Assembly: GCA_965140415.1 (NCBI GenBank)
Contig: OZ223209.1
Location: 1,504,001 to 1,568,000, forward strand
DNA length: 64,000 nt
Source: Myxococcota bacterium
GTDB lineage: Bacteria; Myxococcota_A; SURF-8
Reading direction: 5' to 3'
Part shown: positions 52,174 through 61,014 of the stretch, piece after piece
Numbering within the stretch: position 1 is the stretch's first letter
How the letters are laid out: each line of letters begins with the position of its first letter
The notes under the pieces: generated by a model
The model's input: only the letters and a program-made list of their open reading frames with translations
Databases searched by the model: none
Told to the model about the DNA's origin: nothing
Made by a program: the position numbers and the translations under genes

Positions 52174-52683
52174 TCACGGTGTTTCTTGCTGCTCTTTTAA
52201 AGAACACGCGGATAGGTCGGGTGTGGGAAGCAGGCCGCTGCGGCGAATCTCGATGATTTCCGGTACGAACCGGCGGCTGCGTTTGGCGAGGCGGTCGAAG
52301 CTGATACTGATGGCGAGCATAAGCGCCAGCCCCAGACCAGCACCAATGATGGAGCCGTTTTCACTGGCAGAAGCGTCTGCCCCGCCAAGAGTTGAGCCGA
52401 TCAGAGCCCCGGCGATCAAACCGATCAGTGGTAACAGATACATAAATAGCGAGGAAATGAGAAAGGTGCCCTGCGGCATGGCTACGGAAACGTAATCGCC
52501 TACTTTGCCGCCGACGCTGTTCAAGGCCCGCAGCATATCCGGCTTGTCTTTTCCCAGTGCAAAGCACAAACCGCGCTCCGTGCATTTCTCGCACGCGCCC
52601 CGGCGGGGTGTCGCGACAATAGCCTGGTTTCCGTCAAGCTGCCGAATCACTCCGTTGCGTACTGTCGATGTATCCGAATTCAT
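52174..52683 (-). CDS. RseC/MucC-family (SoxR reducing system) membrane protein
   Basis: ACEKC....LC, A.N..G.KVGD.V.V, Y.LPL plus two TMs; start ATG 52683. Confidence 0.85.
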   Translation of the reverse strand: MNSDTSTVRNGVIRQLDGNQAIVATPRRGACEKCTERGLCFALGKDKPDMLRALNSVGGKVGDYVSVAMPQGTFLISSLFMYLLPLIGLIAGALIGSTLGGADASASENGSIIGAGLGLALMLAISISFDRLAKRSRRFVPEIIEIRRSGLLPTPDLSACSLKEQQETP

Positions 52684-52780
52684 ATCCCGTGTTCCTTGCG
52701 ATTTCTTCCGCTTAAAAACGAACGCCGGTATTATTGCGCCCACAGGGTGTTACGTCAACGATTGATGGCCGTTCATTCCA

Positions 52781-52815
52781 AAAAGAAAAAGACCTCCGAT
52801 GCAGCAGGAGGTCTT
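52781..52815 (-). terminator. Rho-independent terminator closing the tmc/hmc operon
   Basis: AGACCTCC/GGAGGTCT stem + TTTTCTTTT on the minus strand. Confidence 0.8.
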
Positions 52816-52848: not shown

Positions 52849-52989
52849 TTATTCCTTGCTGTCGCGATCGACCAGGAAGCGGTAGAACGCAACGAAGCAG
52901 AGCAGCCACGTCACGATGACCACATAGGTGACGCCTTCGGAATGAACCAGGAAATCCTGTAAGGTATAGAAAATATTGCCTTCGTGCAT
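52849..52989 (-). CDS. hmcD: HmcD-like small membrane subunit (46 aa), not in the ORF track
   Basis: RBS AGGAG; MHEGNIFYTLQDFLVHSEGVTYVVIVTWLLCFVAFYRFLVDRDSKE; lies right after hmcC and before the terminator. Confidence 0.82.
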   Translation of the reverse strand: MHEGNIFYTLQDFLVHSEGVTYVVIVTWLLCFVAFYRFLVDRDSKE

Positions 52990-53004
52990 GGCGTTCTCCT
53001 GTGG

Positions 53005-54183
53005 CTAGTCGTGTTCCGGGTAATCGGGATGTTCGTAGAAAATCGGCATATGGGTAACGATGAAACGGAAAGCCAGAACTCCCAACGTTACCAGGAAGAT
53101 CGAAAGAGCAACTTCCATCCAGTGCGGCGTGTAGCGCAATTCACTGGGCAGGTGGTAGTTGAACGCGGTCAGTGAGATATTCAAGCGGTTGAAGACGATT
53201 CCCAGCACCGTGATAAGGGCCGCCCAGCGGATCAGCGTGCGGTTCTTTTCGCGAACGCCGATTGCATACATAACACAGGGCGTGGCCACGAAGCCGAACA
53301 TCTCGACCAGGAATATCGCGCCGTAGTCCGAGTTCAAATAGCCCCAGTTGTTGTCCAGGCTGACTCCGATCCATTTAATGGCGAAGTATCCGGCCAGCAC
53401 CATCGAAGCGGCCTTACCGAATCCGAAGACTAAAGCATCTGCGGCTTCCAGGTGTTTTTCGTCCATCTTGTGATGGAAGTATTTGTGCGACAAGCCACCC
53501 TCGAAGAGCACCATGGATAGACCTGCTGCGATACTGGATACGAAGAAGAAGACCGGCAGGAAGGAACTGTACCACAAAGGGTGCAGTTTTCCCGGCGTCA
53601 TCAGATACATCGCACCCAGTGAACTCTGGTGCAGCGTGCTCAGTACTACGCCGAAAATCGTCAACAGGATCGTCAGTTTGTGGATCAGACCGCGCAGCTT
53701 TTTCAGGCCCAGCCATTCCATCGGTGCAATGGAGAATTCCAGGAACAGAACGGTCAGATACAACGCCACGCAGGCGGCCACTTCGAACATAACCGAGGTG
53801 GTTCCTTGTTGAACAAGAAACGGGTAGGGCAGCCGCAGGGGGCGTCCGACATCATAGAGCAGCGCAACGACCACCAGGGCATAGCCTAAAAATCCGGTTA
53901 AGATCGCCGGGCGCACGGCGGCGTGGTATTTTTTCATACCGAATAAATACACGCCTGCGCTGGTGGTGTAACCACCCGCCGCCAGGGCAACACCGCAAAG
54001 CAGATCGAAGCCGATCCAGAATCCCCATGGGGTGTAGCCGTCTAGATTCGTTACGGTGGCCAGACCACCGGTGAAGCGCAGCACGGTGATGACCAGACCG
54101 ACGATCACGATGATTCCGGCAACGATGTTGAACGGTGTCAACAGCCCCCTCCCATTACTCTGAACAGCAGTCTCGTGGGACAT
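53005..54183 (-). CDS. hmcC: NrfD/HybB-family membrane subunit HmcC
   Basis: PWGFWIGFD..CGVALAAGG, DVGRP.R, LSTLHQSSLG, KLHPLWYS; about 10 TMs. Confidence 0.88.
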   Translation of the reverse strand: MSHETAVQSNGRGLLTPFNIVAGIIVIVGLVITVLRFTGGLATVTNLDGYTPWGFWIGFDLLCGVALAAGGYTTSAGVYLFGMKKYHAAVRPAILTGFLGYALVVVALLYDVGRPLRLPYPFLVQQGTTSVMFEVAACVALYLTVLFLEFSIAPMEWLGLKKLRGLIHKLTILLTIFGVVLSTLHQSSLGAMYLMTPGKLHPLWYSSFLPVFFFVSSIAAGLSMVLFEGGLSHKYFHHKMDEKHLEAADALVFGFGKAASMVLAGYFAIKWIGVSLDNNWGYLNSDYGAIFLVEMFGFVATPCVMYAIGVREKNRTLIRWAALITVLGIVFNRLNISLTAFNYHLPSELRYTPHWMEVALSIFLVTLGVLAFRFIVTHMPIFYEHPDYPEHD

Positions 54184-55262
54184 CAGGCTTTCTCCTCGGT
54201 TTTCTCTTGAGCAGCTTGCTCCAACTCTTTTTTATAATCGTCAATCGCCTTTTTCACGGCGCGATTCACGGCCATTTCCTGCGATTTCTTGGCGTTTTCC
54301 TTTTCCTTTTTCACTCGTTCCGCCAATGTGGCGTCCGCTGCTTGCTGGTTTTGCTGCACGGCCTGAGCCAGTTCCTGAGCCGCAATCTTTTCTTTACGCT
54401 TGCTCATGGCATAGATACCGGTCAGCAGCACCGGCCAAAGACCAACGACCATCGGCACCGCGCCCAGCGCACCGGCAGTCAATTCCGGTGGTGGAGAGTG
54501 AGGAACGTGCGTCGAGAGTCCCAGATCGTTGAAATCTACTCCGGCGATATACAGCCAACTCGTTCCGCCGATTTCTTTTTCACCAAAGATGTGGTCTTTA
54601 TAGCGTTCGGGATGATCTTTGATGCGCTTGCGAGCGATCTTTAACAGGTCGTCGCGCTTACCGAAGGTCAGTGCTTCCATCGGGCAGGCTTCTACGCAGC
54701 CGGGCAACTTGCCTTCTTTGATGCGCGGATAGCACATGGTGCAGCGAATGACGACCGGGGTGGTCGGGTTGTCGTATTCATATCCCGGCAGGCTCCAGGG
54801 GCAGGCCAGCAGGCAGAAGCGGCAACCGACGCACACGCTGGGATCGTAAACCACCGGACCTTCAGGAGATTTGTGGAAGGCATGCACGAAGCATGCATTG
54901 GCACAGGCCGGCTCCAGGCAATGGTTGCATTGCATTTTTCGGAAAACCGGCGAGCCACCTTTCCCAACACCGTCATACCGATTCACGACCGTAAAGCGCC
55001 CTGTTTCCACCCGGCGTTTCTTGTCCAGCACCGAAAGGTCGTCGAAGGGCTTTTCGGGTTTGGGCTTGTTGTTGACCCGGTTACAGGCGTCTTCGCAGGA
55101 ACGACAGCCGACGCAACGGGTGGTGTCGTGCAACACGCCGTAGCTGCCCTCATATCCTTCGAAGTGCTTGTTGGCCGAGCTGGCATGTGCCTTTTTACCC
55201 ACGGCGGCAGTCGCCCCTACGGTGGCTGCGAGTTTGAAAAATCCTCTACGAGATATGCTCAT
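54183..55262 (-). CDS. hmcB: Tat-exported 4Fe-4S subunit HmcB
   Basis: SRRGFFK; CVGCRSCEDAC, CNHCLEPACANAC, CVGCRFCLLACP, CTMC..CVEACP; C-terminal TM + coiled coil. Confidence 0.88.
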   Translation of the reverse strand: MSISRRGFFKLAATVGATAAVGKKAHASSANKHFEGYEGSYGVLHDTTRCVGCRSCEDACNRVNNKPKPEKPFDDLSVLDKKRRVETGRFTVVNRYDGVGKGGSPVFRKMQCNHCLEPACANACFVHAFHKSPEGPVVYDPSVCVGCRFCLLACPWSLPGYEYDNPTTPVVIRCTMCYPRIKEGKLPGCVEACPMEALTFGKRDDLLKIARKRIKDHPERYKDHIFGEKEIGGTSWLYIAGVDFNDLGLSTHVPHSPPPELTAGALGAVPMVVGLWPVLLTGIYAMSKRKEKIAAQELAQAVQQNQQAADATLAERVKKEKENAKKSQEMAVNRAVKKAIDDYKKELEQAAQEKTEEKA

Positions 55263-55306
55263 GGTTCACTCCTTGACCGAACCTGTATCGCTTGATCGAG
55301 TATGAG

Positions 55307-56926
55307 TCACAGTTTTTTCTTGATGTGGCAGTCCTGACATCCCTGGGCTTTCTCCACTTTCATGCTCTTATGGCAGCCCATGCACATCAAGTGATAGGCT
55401 CCCTTTAATCCCGGACGGTGGATGTCTTCATCATCGAAGGGCGCACCGTGACAATTGCTGCATAGCGGCGGTTTCTCGCCGACCGGCGTATTGTGATGGC
55501 AGCCCTGGCACAGGGCGTCTTCTCCGCCGTGGAAATACAAGGCCATCGGACTTCTCCGGATACCTTCCAGCAGCTTATCAACGTGGTTGTCATGCGCGAA
55601 ATTCACTGGCCGATAAAGGTTTTGCAAGCTGGAAATTTTCACCTCATCCGGCAAGTCTTCTTTGTTAAAGGACAACGTATGTTGCTGTGGATCGAAACCG
55701 GAAACCTGCTGGAATGTTTGCGGTACCTGCTGGGTTTCTGCGGTATCGCCATCGCTGCTTTCTGCTTCAGCTTCCGCCATCTTTTCGCCATTTTGGTTGT
55801 GGCAGCGCACGCAGGCGTTTTTCGCGTATTTTTCCTTTGGCATCAGCGAATGGCAGCCGGCGCAGTTCTGTTCCGTCATTTTTACGTCTTCATGGCAACC
55901 CAAGCAGCTTGCGCCTTTCGTCAGCGTGTGCATGGCGTCTTCCAGATTCACACCGCCGCCGCGCTTGGTGCCGGTCATGGTGTGACAATCGCCGCAGGCG
56001 TTCATGGAATTGTGATGACAGCCACGGCAGGAGTCGGTGTAGTTTTCGTGTCCTTTGTGGTTGAAGGGGACAGCTTTTAACTTGGCTTGTTTGGGTTGTT
56101 CTTCACCATATGTGGAACGCACGACTACGACATCGGGTTGACCACGCTGCAAACGCGGCGGATTGTCGATTTCTTTGCAATTGGCCTGTTCCTTGGCGTC
56201 ATGGCAACCGGCACAGTTGGTCGGACCGGTTTTCTGGTTTCCCAGTGACATGTTCCGGTGACATCCCAGGCATTGCTCGTGTGCCACTTTGCGGAAGGAA
56301 CTGCGCCCGTGCGGCGTATTGGATTCTTCATTCTGGTGGCATTCCCGGCAAGAACTTTCGTGTCCTTTGACATAGCTTGGCTTTGCATCTGCGGCACTGT
56401 CGGAACCTTCGTGGTGACAGCGGTCGCACTGGTTTTCCATGGCCTGAATATGGCTATAGTGCAGGGATTTGTCAAAGCCGACCGGCTGGCGGGTGGAGGT
56501 GTACTCCGGTTCTGCACGGTGGCAGTCGCCACAGGTGATGGGGCCGCTTTCCTTGCCTTCATCTCTGAATTTCTGGTGGCAGCCGATGCAGCCTTCGTGA
56601 TAGAGCTCCATCAGTTCCGCACCCTTCGATTTCCACAGCCGCATGAATTTCTGGGAGAGCAGGCCGTTTTCCTGCTGCTTATGGCAGGTGCTGCAATCTT
56701 TGCCCGATTGCCCGACCGCCTCGACGTGAGCGTCGTGCTTGAATTGCACCGGCGGTCGCTCCAGATCTACGGAACTCTTCATCACGTCGATGAGTATCAG
56801 ATCGGCGCGACCGTGGCCATGTTCCTCTTCGTCCCCGAAAGCGAGCATTCCGCTCAGTCCGACCAGCAGAATCAGCGCCAGTCCCGCTACGTGTGGCCAC
56901 ATGCGATGCTTTGAAAAAAACGCCAT
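55307..56926 (-). CDS. hmcA: High-molecular-weight 16-heme cytochrome c (cytochrome c3 family)
   Basis: 16 CxxCH motifs counted; c3-type F.H..H motifs; PGLKGAYH..CMGCH; signal peptide. Confidence 0.92.
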   Translation of the reverse strand: MAFFSKHRMWPHVAGLALILLVGLSGMLAFGDEEEHGHGRADLILIDVMKSSVDLERPPVQFKHDAHVEAVGQSGKDCSTCHKQQENGLLSQKFMRLWKSKGAELMELYHEGCIGCHQKFRDEGKESGPITCGDCHRAEPEYTSTRQPVGFDKSLHYSHIQAMENQCDRCHHEGSDSAADAKPSYVKGHESSCRECHQNEESNTPHGRSSFRKVAHEQCLGCHRNMSLGNQKTGPTNCAGCHDAKEQANCKEIDNPPRLQRGQPDVVVVRSTYGEEQPKQAKLKAVPFNHKGHENYTDSCRGCHHNSMNACGDCHTMTGTKRGGGVNLEDAMHTLTKGASCLGCHEDVKMTEQNCAGCHSLMPKEKYAKNACVRCHNQNGEKMAEAEAESSDGDTAETQQVPQTFQQVSGFDPQQHTLSFNKEDLPDEVKISSLQNLYRPVNFAHDNHVDKLLEGIRRSPMALYFHGGEDALCQGCHHNTPVGEKPPLCSNCHGAPFDDEDIHRPGLKGAYHLMCMGCHKSMKVEKAQGCQDCHIKKKL

Positions 56927-56990
56927 CTCAGTTTTCCTTCATCTGCTTATGAATACGCTACGATCGTTTCGTGCCGTTCGTGTTGCGTTC

Positions 56991-58301
56991 TTACCCGAAA
57001 TCCACTACTTCCATTAAAATATCCAATACGAATTTGGTATGCATGTTCAAATTGTAGTGGCTGATGATGTCCTCGATGCCGCTATGGCAGTTGTGACAGG
57101 GTGTGACGCAAATATGCGCGCCCGTCTCCCGCAATTGATCCGCTTTAACACGGATGCTCTTCATACGCGAGTTTTTCCAGGGCGGACCGCAGTTGATGAT
57201 GCCGCCGCCCGCCGCACAACAGTAGTTGTGTTCGAAGCGCGGGCTGACATCGGTGAACTTTTCACAGGTTTCGTTAATGATATAGCGCAGTTTGTCACCC
57301 AGACCCAGTCCGCGCACGGTATTGCAGGGGTCTTGTACGGTCACATGTTCCGGGTATTTCTTTTTAATGCGCACTTTCTTGTTTTTGATCAAATCGTAAT
57401 AGAAATCAATGGCATGCACCATTTCGATCGGCGGATACTGCCAACCCAACCAGCGGGGACCGTCGTAAACCGCGCCGCGATAGGCATGACCGCATTCGCC
57501 CATAACGATCTTCTTGACCTTTAACCGTTCTGCGGTTTCCCAGTGCAGCCGTTCCACGCGCCCCATGACTTCGAAATCGCCGGAGAACATGGCCATGTTG
57601 CTGTTGTCCCAGCCGTCGGTTGCAGGCATGGTCCAGTCGATTCCGGCTACCGTCATCAACTTGGCCATATTGGCGAGCAGGTGCGCCATGATCTTCGGTT
57701 CCGGACCGATAACGGAGTAAAGCACTTCCGCGCCTTCTTTTTCCAGCGGGATGCGCAGGTTCGGCATGTCGAACTGGGCTTCTTCCTCCTGCCACATCAG
57801 CGTATCGATCCATTCGTCCTGGTTCACCCACATCTGGTTGTTGGTGGCCGAGTGACTGTTGGTGGTATCTTGCAGGAATTGCGGAACCACGCGCAACAGG
57901 TGGCAGATACGACGCGCCAGCATCATCAAATATGCGATATCGATGCCGAAGGGGCAGTACATGCTGCAACGACGGCAGGTGCCGCATTCGGTGTAGGCGA
58001 TCACCGCCATTTGTCGGATGAATTCCGGTGAGACGTTGCCGTCTTTTTTCACCAGCTCCCAGATCGTGTTGCGTACTTTGCTGACGGGGGCGAATTCCGG
58101 ATCTTTATCCCGTGATAGATACGTGTGACAGGCATCGGCGCACAAACCGCAGCGCACACAGGTTTCCAGGTAGACTTTCAGCCTGGCGGCGGATTCCTGT
58201 TTGAGCACTCGGTCAACCGCCCATTTGATTTTCTCGGGAGTGAGGCGCTTGATACCCTCGTCGAGCCCTTGGTCTTGTACGTGTTCCCGGGTCGTGGTCA
58301 T
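56991..58301 (-). CDS. tmcB: Cytoplasmic Fe-S/CCG protein TmcB (DsrK/HdrD/HmcF family)
   Basis: CVRCGLCADACH, CGTCRRCSMYCP, QDT..SHSAT.NQMWV..DEWID.L.WQE.EA, GECGHA, NYCCAAGGG.INCGPP, PCHNCH. Resembles TmcB rather than HmcF as I recall them. Alternative start TTG 58307. Confidence 0.82.
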   Translation of the reverse strand: MTTTREHVQDQGLDEGIKRLTPEKIKWAVDRVLKQESAARLKVYLETCVRCGLCADACHTYLSRDKDPEFAPVSKVRNTIWELVKKDGNVSPEFIRQMAVIAYTECGTCRRCSMYCPFGIDIAYLMMLARRICHLLRVVPQFLQDTTNSHSATNNQMWVNQDEWIDTLMWQEEEAQFDMPNLRIPLEKEGAEVLYSVIGPEPKIMAHLLANMAKLMTVAGIDWTMPATDGWDNSNMAMFSGDFEVMGRVERLHWETAERLKVKKIVMGECGHAYRGAVYDGPRWLGWQYPPIEMVHAIDFYYDLIKNKKVRIKKKYPEHVTVQDPCNTVRGLGLGDKLRYIINETCEKFTDVSPRFEHNYCCAAGGGIINCGPPWKNSRMKSIRVKADQLRETGAHICVTPCHNCHSGIEDIISHYNLNMHTKFVLDILMEVVDFG

Positions 58302-58337
58302 GTTCAATGGTCCTCCAAGCGATTGATCGCGTCTCGA

Positions 58338-58997
58338 CTACCAGTCTTTGCTGTTACGAACAAAGCCGAACTCACTGCCCATATAAGCTCTGGTCAGTGG
58401 GAAAAAGAGCATATGGCTGATCCGGGTAAACGGTATGGCCATCAGCCACACTTCACCCGTCAGAATATGAGCGGTAATGATGGTGGTGTAGTCGGCTGCC
58501 TGATAATAAGCCAGCATGCCGGTGAAGAAGGGGCTTAGCACCAACAGAAGCAGCACGAAATCCCAGATCGAACTGACCATGCGCACGGTCGGCTCGGCCA
58601 GTCGGCGCAAACCGAAAATCACACCCACCACCAACACGATGATCGTCATGCTGTTGGTCATGCCTTCCGGCAGGTTCGCCCAGCGAAATCCCCAGGACTG
58701 CTCCAGCAGGATCAAATGACCCAGTGTCAACAGCGGGGTGACGATCAGGCAGAAGTGAAACAGAAACGACACGATCGTAAAGAAAGGACGTTTACGCATA
58801 TTGAGGCTGCCAAACGGGATCAGCCAGTGAAACACGGAGCGCAGTCCGAATTTCCAGTTCATGTAGGGGTAGACCACCTTGTCTTTCTTGGCCAGGCGGA
58901 TCATCGAGACCAGCTTGTAGATGCTGCCCAGGATGAAGACCAGAAAGGCGATCCATACCAAGGGTCCGCGTGCAAGTTCGTACAGTGCCACGGTCAA
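58338..58997 (-). CDS. tmcC: NarI-like cytochrome b membrane subunit TmcC
   Basis: GPLVWIAF, FLFH..L...GH, HILTGE....IPFTRISHM.F...TRAYMGSEFG.VR...DW. Confidence 0.82.
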   Translation of the reverse strand: MTVALYELARGPLVWIAFLVFILGSIYKLVSMIRLAKKDKVVYPYMNWKFGLRSVFHWLIPFGSLNMRKRPFFTIVSFLFHFCLIVTPLLTLGHLILLEQSWGFRWANLPEGMTNSMTIIVLVVGVIFGLRRLAEPTVRMVSSIWDFVLLLLVLSPFFTGMLAYYQAADYTTIITAHILTGEVWLMAIPFTRISHMLFFPLTRAYMGSEFGFVRNSKDW

Positions 58998-59041
58998 ACT
59001 CCTTTATAGATGAGTCGTGTCTTTACTGATTCGGTTACCAG

Positions 59042-60292
59042 TTACAGTTCCACGATTTCCCGGATGTACGAGCCATCCTGAATATAACGCAACATCAGCT
59101 TGTTGCCGTCCGTGCTGAAAATGGGATCCCACATTTTCTCAACGTTTTCGCCAAGTTTTCGTCCGTTCAGATAACAGCAGAATGTTCCATTCTGTTCTAC
59201 TTTGGCCGCAACCCGGTGTCCATCGGGGCTGATGACCGGATCCCAGGCCATGTCGAAGGTGTCCGCCCAGGCTTCGCCGTTGACGGCGACTCCCCAACGA
59301 TTATCACTCTTTACAAGGGCGGCTACGGTCGCCCCGTTTGCAGAAAGCACCGGTTGAGTTACCATATCCTTAAAGGTGGCCGACCAGGGTTGATCGTCTA
59401 CCGCGATGGACCAGCGCCCGAATTCTTTGGCGACGACCGCCGCCAGCCGGGAACCGTCTTGACTATACACGGGTTTCCAGCACTGAGCGAAGGAGCGGCT
59501 CCAGAAGGATTCGCCGTTACGAACCAAGGTCCAATTGCCCTGGATACGTACCGGAGCGATGACATCTTCGCTGTTGGGAACAAACAGCGGTTCCCACACC
59601 GCGGGATAGCGTGCCGACCAGGCAAGCCCGTTTTTAGCGATGGTGTATTCGTGGTTGCTGGTGCGCACTTGAGCGGCGACCTGGCTGGCGTCGTCATTGA
59701 AAACCGGCGCCCACAAGCCAAGGAAGCTTTGCTCCCAGGGGGTGCCATCGATCAGCAAGGTCCACATGCCTTTGAAAAACGACTCGATATCCGCCTCTTT
59801 GCGGGGGCCTGTTTGGATGCTGTAGGCCAGATGCTGTCCGTCGGGACTGACACAGAACTCACGAATGGCAGGGTAGCCGGTTTCAAAAGGTTGGCCGTTG
59901 ATCGATGCGCCGTAATCCATGCCGCTTTTACACAGGAAAGCGACAACTTCGCCATTGGCGCTGAAACGCGGCTGCCAGACGAAATCGAAACGTTCGCCTG
60001 CAACCTCACCATCCAGCGCCAAGCCCCATTCGTCGTCGTTCATCGCCAAGGCCATCAATTTGCCGCTGGGCAGATAGCGCAGATACCAGAGCTTTTCAAA
60101 CGAATTCGGCCAGGGCTGATCGTTCAGGCTGACCGTGTATTCATCATCCTCGGTTTTTCCCAAGGTGGCCAGGGTTTCTCCATCCGGAGAGGCGGCCATT
60201 TCATGAACTTCCTTGTAACCGGAATGAATGGTGTTGAGGTCCGCAAGGACTTTTTTCCCGTTACTCCAATCCCATTGCTCTTTCGCGCTCAT
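59042..60292 (-). CDS. tmcD: Trp-rich beta-propeller subunit TmcD
   Basis: WDW N-terminus, SPDGE, repeated W...F...W.P.FS.DG..(V/L)AA units; directly upstream of tmcC. Confidence 0.8.
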   Translation of the reverse strand: MSAKEQWDWSNGKKVLADLNTIHSGYKEVHEMAASPDGETLATLGKTEDDEYTVSLNDQPWPNSFEKLWYLRYLPSGKLMALAMNDDEWGLALDGEVAGERFDFVWQPRFSANGEVVAFLCKSGMDYGASINGQPFETGYPAIREFCVSPDGQHLAYSIQTGPRKEADIESFFKGMWTLLIDGTPWEQSFLGLWAPVFNDDASQVAAQVRTSNHEYTIAKNGLAWSARYPAVWEPLFVPNSEDVIAPVRIQGNWTLVRNGESFWSRSFAQCWKPVYSQDGSRLAAVVAKEFGRWSIAVDDQPWSATFKDMVTQPVLSANGATVAALVKSDNRWGVAVNGEAWADTFDMAWDPVISPDGHRVAAKVEQNGTFCCYLNGRKLGENVEKMWDPIFSTDGNKLMLRYIQDGSYIREIVEL

Positions 60293-60391: not shown

Positions 60392-60829
60392 TTACGGATC
60401 TTGAGATTCGAATCCCCATTGCTTGAAGTAACTGCAATCCCGGCAATCTTGTTGACTGCATAACACTCCAGGCAATTGACGGCGCAGAATGAAGCAATTT
60501 AAAACTTTTCCCTTAAATATCGGACAGGTTTCACACGATTCTACCGTTGCAATACGATGTTTCGATTTCAGATTATGAAATTCCCAGCAGTGCTCACGAT
60601 TAGCAACTTCGGTATCCAACAAATCCGTTGACATCCCATGAGAACGCATGAACGTTCGAAGGTCTTCGACCATCACCCGGTGCTGGCCACCTGCCGTCTT
60701 TTGAGCCGGCAAGCCTTTGGTTTTTATCCAGACCAGGATTGTATCGGAGGTGACGAAGCAGTAGCGGGCCGCTTGACCGGTAGACAGTGCCTTCGTTTTT
60801 TGGTTCGTATCCGTTTTTTCGATAGACAT
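60392..60829 (-). CDS. Excisionase/MerR-like HTH regulator with a 7-Cys C-terminal domain
   Basis: LSTGQAARYCFVTSDTILVWIK..GLPAQKTAGGQHRV...DLRTFM, then CWEF..CETCP..NCF..LC..CRDC; start ATG 60829. Confidence 0.82.
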   Translation of the reverse strand: MSIEKTDTNQKTKALSTGQAARYCFVTSDTILVWIKTKGLPAQKTAGGQHRVMVEDLRTFMRSHGMSTDLLDTEVANREHCWEFHNLKSKHRIATVESCETCPIFKGKVLNCFILRRQLPGVLCSQQDCRDCSYFKQWGFESQDP

Positions 60830-60899
60830 TGTGCACCCGAGGGGCCATCGACCCGGCAGATTCGGCTTTTTCAGCCTTTTCCTGGGTTCGTCGCTGCCG

Positions 60900-60928
60900 A
60901 GTATTGCAAATTCACGGGAATTTGTCAA
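60900..60928 (-). promoter_or_regulatory. Promoter TTGACA-N17-AATACT with palindrome CAAATTC-N4-GAATTTG in the spacer
   Basis: -35 at 60928-60923, -10 at 60905-60900, palindrome at 60907-60924. Confidence 0.55.
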
Positions 60929-60997
60929 TTCATTTTGCTACAGACTTTGGTTTGGAATAATTGCGTTTTCAACAGGTTATCGCAATAATACTACAGC

Positions 60998-61014
60998 TGT
61001 AACAAATTGTTACA
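60998..61014. promoter_or_regulatory. Perfect palindrome TGTAACA-AAT-TGTTACA (candidate operator)
   Basis: Read directly; AATTGTTACAC recurs exactly at 60333-60343. Confidence 0.5.

What the first reader, a model, noticed from the sequence alone, without database searches (positions are those of the whole stretch)
52849..60292. Hybrid Tmc/Hmc transmembrane electron conduit: tmcDCB-hmcABCD
Seen: seven co-oriented, closely spaced genes ending in one terminator. Known: Desulfovibrio encodes hmcABCDEF and tmcABCD as separate complexes, with TmcC/TmcB paralogous to HmcE/HmcF. Here the 16-heme HmcA-HmcB-HmcC-HmcD arm is joined to TmcB/C/D, with no tmcA, hmcEF or rrf genes. Inference: one complex linking periplasmic hemes, quinone (NrfD-type HmcC) and a cytoplasmic thiol/disulfide site (TmcB). 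It sits in a genome with myxobacterial-type surface genes and no dsr gene in the window. Similar layouts may exist in Desulfobacterales, so novelty must be checked.
Basis: partly seen in the sequence, partly recalled or inferred. Interest (0 to 1): 0.75.

Follow-up and report, generated by a model that had tools for sequence, protein, structure and literature searches.

The report
Joined Tmc-Hmc electron-transfer operon
A sulfate-reducing myxobacterial relative has one operon that joins the inner half of the Tmc membrane complex to the outer half of the Hmc complex; the layout is common in sulfate reducers of many phyla and may do the work of the energy-conserving Qrc complex, which these organisms mostly lack.

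Summary
The seven genes are real: tmcD-tmcC-tmcB-hmcA (16 hemes)-hmcB-hmcC-hmcD, then a terminator. The membrane and Fe-S subunits group with TmcC/TmcB, not HmcE/F, so the hybrid reading holds. The host is not dsr-free: it has dsrDAB, dsrC, dsrMKJOP, aprA and sat, but no hydrogenase was found. The layout is not local. It occurs in 64 of the 80 closest loci (14 phylum labels), and in a Desulfobacterota sample it outnumbers textbook hmcABCDEF 12 to 5. HmcA sits in the tmcA slot of the normal tmcDCBA operon. This scan noted the layout five times before on other DNA; my paper searches found no description (Pereira 2011 was not readable). Added here: QrcD was found in 1 of 60 carriers but 12 of 14 genomes with short Tmc; four loci carry qrc genes where hmcBC is missing; and HmcC keeps six of eight mapped QrcD proton-channel residues invariant. 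Best reading: one complex feeding periplasmic electrons to both menaquinone and DsrC, replacing Qrc plus Tmc. That contrast rests on only 2-3 independent lineage comparisons; assembly, direction and donor are not shown. New variant of a known kind.

The parts
60998..61014 (.). Perfect 8-1-8 palindrome about 70 bases upstream of the regulator gene; candidate operator
   Evidence: Only copy in the genome with up to 2 mismatches; not found within 3 mismatches upstream of 10 homologous starts. Function not shown.
60392..60928 (-). HTH_17/excisionase-type DNA-binding protein with a cysteine-rich C-terminal part; probable regulator, 99 bases before tmcD
   Evidence: PF12728 and TIGR01764; homologues in 6 related loci, directly before tmcD in 5
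59042..60292 (-). tmcD: acidic, Trp-rich all-beta propeller-type subunit, no hydrophobic helix (cytoplasmic by inference)
   Evidence: NF045725 511.7 bits; single-sequence model all-beta, pLDDT 68.8, matches to WD40 propellers at low TM-score; hydropathy
58338..58997 (-). tmcC: NarI-type membrane cytochrome b
   Evidence: NF045723 above cut-off, HmcE below; H81, H94, H177, H195 invariant in 50 aligned sequences; profile matches NarI
56991..58307 (-). tmcB: cytoplasmic HdrD/DsrK-type Fe-S protein with two ferredoxin motifs, the GECGH cysteine (C272) and one CCG domain
   Evidence: NF045724 714 bits; motifs; TmcB clade
55307..56926 (-). hmcA: periplasmic 16-heme cytochrome c, in the slot that tmcA fills in tmcDCBA operons
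   Evidence: 16 CxxCH; NF045713; PDB 1gws E 1.9e-112 over residues 16-536; gene order
54183..55262 (-). hmcB: Tat-exported NrfC/HybA-type Fe-S protein with a C-terminal membrane helix
   Evidence: NF045715; twin-arginine motif in the sequence; 16 invariant Cys in 42 sequences; helix 265-283
53005..54183 (-). hmcC: NrfD-family quinone-binding membrane subunit with QrcD-like proton-channel residues D60, Y101, Y142, E149, E156, H185
   Evidence: NF045714 655 bits; residue mapping
52849..52989 (-). hmcD: 46-aa single-helix membrane peptide
52780..52815 (-). Intrinsic terminator-like hairpin with U tail
52174..52743 (-). rseC-family gene beyond the terminator; probably not part of the complex
   Evidence: PF04246; no homologue in the 125 related loci searched

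Best explanation
The operon encodes one membrane complex, TmcDCB-HmcABCD, built on the DsrMKJOP plan and used in sulfate respiration. The 16-heme HmcA is the periplasmic hub and takes electrons from the c3-type cytochrome pool. One branch runs HmcA to the TmcC b hemes to the TmcB Fe-S/CCG site and reduces DsrC, as proposed for Tmc. The other runs HmcA to HmcB to HmcC and reduces menaquinone with protons drawn from the cytoplasm, as shown for Qrc. It thus stands in for the separate Tmc and Qrc complexes of model sulfate reducers. Shown: genes, family identity, cofactor motifs, link to dsrA, near-exclusion with QrcD. Inferred: single assembly, DsrC as partner, direction, charge separation. No hydrogenase or periplasmic formate dehydrogenase was found in this host, so the donor must be something else; the Rnf-linked 19-heme cytochrome and the lone tetraheme c3 are my candidates (inference).
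For: The order is kept in 64 of 80 closest loci. HmcF was found in 0 of 60 carriers (3 of 3 positive controls), so TmcCB is the only Tmc/Hmc-type inner module for the Hmc arm. In an even sample of 351 genomes of the host's phylum, TmcD was found in 9 of 15 dsrA genomes and 0 of 336 without dsrA; 43 of 44 joined-layout genomes tested have dsrA. TmcB keeps the GECGH cysteine that PMC10861901 ties to disulfide reduction. QrcD was found in 1 of 60 carriers against 12 of 14 short-Tmc genomes, and 0 of 14 against 12 of 14 within Desulfobacterota. Four loci put NrfCD-type genes before tmcDCB plus an 11-14-heme cytochrome and lack hmcBC; QrcD was identified by HMM in three of them. Six of eight mapped QrcD channel residues are invariant in 49 of 49 HmcC sequences, in line with PMC6303296, which suggests HmcC is an electrogenic quinone reductase.
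Against: The Qrc contrast holds only 2 independent pairs on well-supported branches (3 on all branches); none goes the other way, but it cannot reach significance. Two short-Tmc genomes (G167, G131) and four canonical-Hmc genomes lack QrcD as well, and G056 has both. Two genomes of the same order (G006, G009) keep tmcDCB and hmcABCD at separate loci. NiFe hydrogenase was found in only 13 of 52 genomes tested, so the classical periplasmic donor is mostly missing. In D. alaskensis, Hmc was not needed for H2 oxidation and mattered for oxygen survival (PMC4215793). The host has a NuoH gene, so probably another route to reduce quinone. QrcD N100 is replaced by Arg (48 of 49) and Y88 is kept in only 28 of 49. 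Many genomes are incomplete assemblies.
Confidence: 0.45

Rival explanations
1. One complex, but working outward like Desulfovibrio Hmc: it drains cytoplasmic thiol (DsrC) and quinol electrons into the periplasmic heme pool for oxygen removal, other periplasmic reductases or partner cells.
For: Hmc was important for oxygen survival and not for H2 use in D. alaskensis; PMC5109826 assumes the outward direction for Hmc. The host has a cbb3 oxidase, an ACIII-like cluster and an octaheme reductase fused to an HmcC-like domain, and no hydrogenase was found.
Against: Within the host's phylum TmcD was found only in dsrA genomes. The inner half is Tmc-type, and Tmc mutants are impaired in inward transfer. 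It does not explain the pattern with Qrc.
Confidence: 0.22
2. The genes are co-transcribed but make two loosely linked modules: a Tmc whose cytochrome happens to be HmcA, and an HmcBC quinone module that meets it only through soluble hemes. This concerns assembly and is compatible with either direction.
For: The two halves are at separate loci in G006 and G009, where hmcABCD runs on into a 19-heme cytochrome and rnf genes. The quinone arm is exchangeable: Qrc-type in some loci and HybB-like in others.
Against: The order is kept across 14 phylum labels, HmcD travels with it, and no HmcF or tmc-linked tetraheme gene offers either half another partner in this genome.
Confidence: 0.2
3. A DsrC-menaquinone shunt: electrons loop TmcB-TmcC-HmcA-HmcB-HmcC with no outside donor, balancing the thiol and quinone pools. 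By charge counting this loop would be about electroneutral (inference).
For: No periplasmic hydrogenase or formate dehydrogenase was found in the host, which has several HdrA/HdrD-type cytoplasmic proteins that could load DsrC.
Against: DsrMKJOP already couples quinol to DsrC-trisulfide (PMC10861901 abstract) and is present. A 16-heme surface is more than an internal loop needs.
Confidence: 0.13

Closest known systems
TmcABCD of Desulfovibrio (Nitratidesulfovibrio) vulgaris / Oleidesulfovibrio alaskensis (gene order tmcD-C-B-A)
   Same: TmcD, TmcC and TmcB orthologues in the same order, followed by a class III cytochrome.
   Different: The fourth gene is a 16-heme HmcA, not a tetraheme TmcA, and hmcB, hmcC and hmcD follow. 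Tmc has no NrfD subunit (PMC4215793).
HmcABCDEF of Desulfovibrio vulgaris Hildenborough
   Same: HmcA, B and C pass their family cut-offs and HmcD aligns; same overall plan.
   Different: No HmcE/HmcF; the inner module is TmcC/TmcB, comes first, and brings TmcD. No rrf gene flanks the row.
QrcABCD (cytochrome c3:menaquinone oxidoreductase)
   Same: NrfC/NrfD-type pair fed by a periplasmic cytochrome; six of eight mapped proton-channel residues are kept.
   Different: HmcC scores 109 bits on the QrcD model (cut-off 570); no QrcB; Qrc has no DsrC-facing branch.
DsrMKJOP
   Same: One-to-one plan: NarI-type (M/TmcC), CCG Fe-S (K/TmcB), cytochrome (J/HmcA), Fe-S (O/HmcB), NrfD (P/HmcC).
   Different: A paralogue only; the host has a true dsrMKJOP elsewhere.
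Neighbouring tmc and hmc clusters of Desulfococcus multivorans (PMC5109826)
   Same: tmcDCB lies upstream of hmcABC on the same strand.
   Different: There tmcA1 (132 aa) and hmcEF are both present and about 5.7 kb separates tmcA1 from hmcA: two full complexes, not one joined operon.

Membership tests
Hmc (HmcABCDEF) | 16-heme HmcA | tested here: met
   16 CxxCH, NF045713 536.7 > 400, PDB 1gws
Hmc (HmcABCDEF) | HmcB, HmcC, HmcD after hmcA | tested here: met
Hmc (HmcABCDEF) | HmcE and HmcF as inner module | tested here: not met
   Below cut-offs; tree places the protein with TmcB; no HmcF found in the genome
Tmc (TmcABCD) | TmcD and TmcC | tested here: met
   Both above cut-off
Tmc (TmcABCD) | TmcB orthologue | tested here: met
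   714 bits is just under the 735 cut-off, but it lies inside the TmcB clade, apart from HmcF
Tmc (TmcABCD) | Tetraheme acidic TmcA in the operon | tested here: not met
   Slot filled by HmcA; the lone tetraheme c3 at genome position 458757 is basic (pI 9.6) and scores 77 < 114
Tmc (TmcABCD) | No NrfD-type subunit | tested here: not met
   hmcC is in the operon
Tmc (TmcABCD) | Reduction by hydrogenase/TpIc3 and transfer to DsrC | not testable with these tools
   No hydrogenase found in the host
Qrc (QrcABCD) | QrcD/QrcC/QrcB orthologues | tested here: not met
   QrcD model 109 < 570, QrcC 45 < 400; no QrcD in the genome
Qrc (works like) | Proton-channel residues D70, Y88, N100, Y110, Y150, E157, E164, H199, E413 | tested here: inconclusive
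   Six invariant in 49 of 49, Y88 in 28 of 49, N100 replaced, E413 not mapped; numbering carried over through a QrcD homologue at a constant offset of 8
Qrc (works like) | Electrogenic menaquinone reduction | not testable with these tools
   Needs proteoliposome assay
DsrMKJOP | DsrM/K/J/O/P orthologues | tested here: not met
   DsrK 204 < 400, DsrO 105 < 200; true dsrMKJOP elsewhere

The most novel reading that the evidence does not exclude
TmcDCB-HmcABCD is the common and older form of this complex family. It is the Qrc-equivalent, energy-conserving periplasm-to-quinone module of the many sulfate reducers that lack Qrc (Myxococcota, Acidobacteriota, Ignavibacteriota, Zixibacteria, parts of Desulfobacterota), wired in one unit to DsrC. 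The textbook Tmc and Hmc would then be derived offshoots: Tmc by shrinking HmcA and handing the quinone job to Qrc, Hmc by pairing the outer arm with HmcEF.
Probability: 0.25. Interest if true: 0.75.

Novelty: new variant of a known kind. Interest (0 to 1): 0.5.

Why it matters
Models of energy conservation in sulfate reduction come from Desulfovibrio, where Tmc, Hmc and Qrc are separate. Genomes of many newly recognised sulfate reducers lack Qrc and hydrogenases, and how they use periplasmic electron carriers is open. If this joined complex does the work of Qrc and Tmc, it names a main respiratory module of those lineages, gives the uncertain role of HmcC a direct test, and suggests that the model complexes are the special cases. 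If it is only a gene-order variant, it still corrects annotation: these operons are neither plain Hmc nor plain Tmc.

Tried and rejected
(1) Host without dsr: rejected. (2) Proteins being HmcE/F in permuted order: rejected. (3) Complex prediction of TmcC against HmcC, HmcB and HmcD: no verdict, score 0.00, controls not folded; no evidence either way. (4) Polarity of evolution: best trees place short-Tmc TmcBs in two groups among large-cytochrome forms and canonical HmcC among joined forms, but fair AU tests do not reject the alternatives (TmcB p 0.21; HmcC p 0.37). The first HmcC test (p 0.0001) was discarded because it included loci that use a HybB-like paralogue. (5) Expression: no RNA holder listed. 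(6) Upstream palindrome as a conserved operator: not found in relatives. (7) rseC as a conserved part: not found in related loci. (8) No solved structure matched TmcB or the HmcC profile. (9) Paper search returned only unrelated papers. (10) Fisher tests on the Qrc table are not used as evidence, because kin are not independent.
Full report
OBSERVATION. The minus strand carries seven closely spaced ORFs from 60292 to 52849, with gaps of 44, 30, 64, 44, -1 and 15 bases. NCBIfam names them TmcD, TmcC, TmcB, HmcA, HmcB and HmcC; all pass their cut-offs except TmcB (714 against 735), which still scores twice as high as on HmcF (357). HmcA has 16 CxxCH motifs and matches the D. vulgaris HmcA structure end to end. 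The 46-aa last ORF aligns with HmcD of canonical operons. A hairpin with a U tail follows at 52780-52815. An HTH-type gene precedes the row and an rseC-family gene follows the terminator.

IDENTITY OF THE INNER HALF. In a 100-protein tree and in a 43-protein mixture-model tree, the 56991 protein lies among TmcB proteins, and HmcF forms a separate branch (100/100). HmcF rows came from five loci whose proteins pass the HmcE/HmcF cut-offs. TmcB keeps two ferredoxin motifs, the GECGH cysteine and one CCG domain. TmcC keeps four invariant histidines and matches NarI. The normal tmc order is tmcD-C-B-A: 9 of 20 fetched Desulfobacterota TmcD loci show a tetraheme gene after tmcB, as does D. multivorans. 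So HmcA fills the tmcA slot and brings hmcBCD with it.

HOST. The genome (5.98 Mb, one contig, 93.7% complete) has dsrD-dsrA-dsrB, a CobB-family (dsrN-like) gene and dsrC about 50 kb before the window, dsrMKJOP, aprA, qmoAB-like genes with an HdrD-type third gene, and sat. DsrD marks a reductive pathway (PMC10591310). No NiFe or FeFe hydrogenase was found. Of three molybdopterin matches, one is a formate dehydrogenase beside NuoE/F-like genes (cytoplasmic by inference), one is PhsA-like, and one was not examined. The host also has Rnf with a 19-heme cytochrome next to it, one basic tetraheme c3, an ACIII-like cluster with a cbb3 oxidase, NuoH, and an octaheme reductase fused to an HmcC-like domain. 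The closest TmcB loci (83-84% identity) are titled Myxococcota.

DISTRIBUTION. The best 80 of at least 593 TmcB-like stretches were kept, so this set leans to close relatives. Of the 80, 64 show tmcD-C-B plus a 15-17-heme cytochrome plus hmcB and hmcC (tmcD is cut off in one; three place hmcA after hmcBC), 9 are cut by the locus end, and 7 differ: 2 split, 4 Qrc-linked, 1 tetraheme. Fifty-eight of the 64 carry one of 14 phylum labels taken from record titles; 6 have none. For a less biased view I drew 201 genomes from the phylum of a Desulfomonilaceae carrier: 27 have an HmcA match. I examined 21 of the 27: 12 joined (one with tmcB in two pieces, one cut inside hmcA by the contig end), 5 canonical hmcABC(D)EF, 4 other; the 6 not examined were partial-length matches. 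DsrA was found in 46 of 50 genomes chosen from the 80 loci, and in 43 of the 44 with the joined order; three of the four misses are Qrc-linked variants. In 351 genomes of the host's phylum, TmcD was found in 9 of 15 with dsrA and 0 of 336 without; one genome without a dsrA match has an HmcA match with a different inner pair. NiFe hydrogenase was found in 13 of 52 genomes tested.

THE QRC PATTERN. QrcD was found in 1 of 60 genomes with both halves (58 joined, 2 split), in 12 of 14 with short Tmc (tetraheme or no cytochrome in the row), and in 0 of 4 canonical-Hmc genomes in which TmcD was not found. HmcF was found in 0 of the 60, with 3 of 3 controls positive. HmcC above cut-off was found in 2 of the 14 short-Tmc genomes. 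Four loci place NrfCD-type genes before tmcDCB and an 11-14-heme cytochrome with no hmcBC; three were scanned and have QrcD above cut-off. PMC6303296 lists the QrcD proton-channel residues and says most are kept in HmcC. Mapped through a QrcD homologue, six of eight are invariant in 49 HmcC sequences (D60, Y101, Y142, E149, E156, H185 here), one is partly kept, one is replaced, and the ninth was not mapped. Against this: on the TmcB tree the contrast is only 2-3 independent pairs; none goes the opposite way, but no test can reach significance. Many genomes are incomplete.

MECHANISM. Best reading (0.45): one DsrMKJOP-like complex whose HmcA hub passes periplasmic electrons inward to DsrC through TmcCB and to menaquinone through HmcBC, replacing Tmc plus Qrc. 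Genes, motifs and co-occurrence are shown; assembly, partner, direction and charge separation are inferred from the D. vulgaris, D. alaskensis and A. fulgidus work. The donor in this host is unknown. Two same-order genomes place hmcABCD directly before a 19-heme cytochrome and rnf genes, which points to Rnf as a source. Rivals: outward flow for oxygen defence or export (0.22), two loosely linked modules (0.2), an internal DsrC-quinone shunt (0.13).

EVOLUTION. The best trees put short-Tmc proteins in two groups among large-cytochrome forms and canonical HmcC among joined forms, which fits the joined form being older. AU tests do not reject the alternatives (p 0.21 and 0.37), so polarity is open. 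The idea that Tmc is a simplified Hmc is already in print (PMC4215793 citing Pereira 2011).

LITERATURE. Searches: (uninformative). Seen as passages around search terms: PMC5109826 (plus rows of its supplement), PMC2702500, PMC10861901 (plus abstract), PMC5539420, PMC4215793, PMC8528874 (plus a supplement search), PMC10564751 (supplement search, no hits), PMC10591310, PMC11887813, PMC10504309, PMC10553843, PMC6303296. None of the passages describes this order. The nearest are the neighbouring full tmc and hmc clusters of D. multivorans, tmc operons without tmcA in seep SRB, and automatic 'high-molecular-weight cytochrome' and 'HMC operon ORF 5' labels in Sulfomarinibacter tables. Pereira et al. 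2011, the comparative review most likely to mention it, is not held; most subscription papers and all figure images are unseen, so absence from print is not shown. This scan recorded the same layout five times on other genomes; those are unchecked AI notes, read after my own layout counts.

VERDICT. Real and correctly read as a Tmc/Hmc hybrid, but common and sitting in a sulfate reducer. New variant of a known kind; interest 0.5, resting mostly on the testable Qrc-replacement idea.

Noticed in passing
L052, L055, L064, L071: Variant operon: qrc genes, then tmcDCB, then an 11-14-heme cytochrome, no hmcBC; dsrA was not found in three of the four genomes, and one tested genome has two dsrA matches.
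   Followed up: partly
L166, L167 (G006, G009): hmcABCD runs straight into a 19-heme cytochrome and rnf genes, with tmcDCB elsewhere; hmcA is interrupted by stops in G009.
   Followed up: partly
window 52174-52743; L122 2559-11130: An rseC gene follows the operon, while the host's rnf row with a divergent 19-heme cytochrome and an RnfB fused to a GltD-like oxidoreductase lies far away; possibly a relic of an hmc-rnf linkage.
   Followed up: partly
window 60392-61014: HTH_17 protein with a cysteine-rich tail, found before tmcD in several relatives; candidate redox-sensing regulator, with a unique palindrome upstream.
   Followed up: partly
L113 6424-10994: HmcB-like gene plus a 1074-aa fusion of an HmcC/HybB-like domain with an octaheme tetrathionate-reductase-family domain (13 CxxCH), behind an ArsR regulator.
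   Followed up: no
L140, L141, L168, L169: Another inner module before hmcA: a TmcC-like gene plus a short (140-160 aa) ferredoxin piece of TmcB, without tmcD; one such genome (G368) had no dsrA match.
   Followed up: partly
L128/L129 (G259): Two hmcABC sets in tandem, one behind an HdrA/HdrD-like gene and a TmcC-like gene, one behind tmcDCB.
   Followed up: no
L111 14972-19668: qmoAB-like genes are followed by an HdrD-type gene rather than a membrane QmoC.
   Followed up: no
L119 5966-8543: A second DsrM/DsrK-like pair behind a sigma-54 activator; similar DsrK-like genes lie next to the operon in several relatives.
   Followed up: no
L146-L149: Duplicated tmcB on both sides of tmcDC, with no cytochrome gene in the row.
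   Followed up: no
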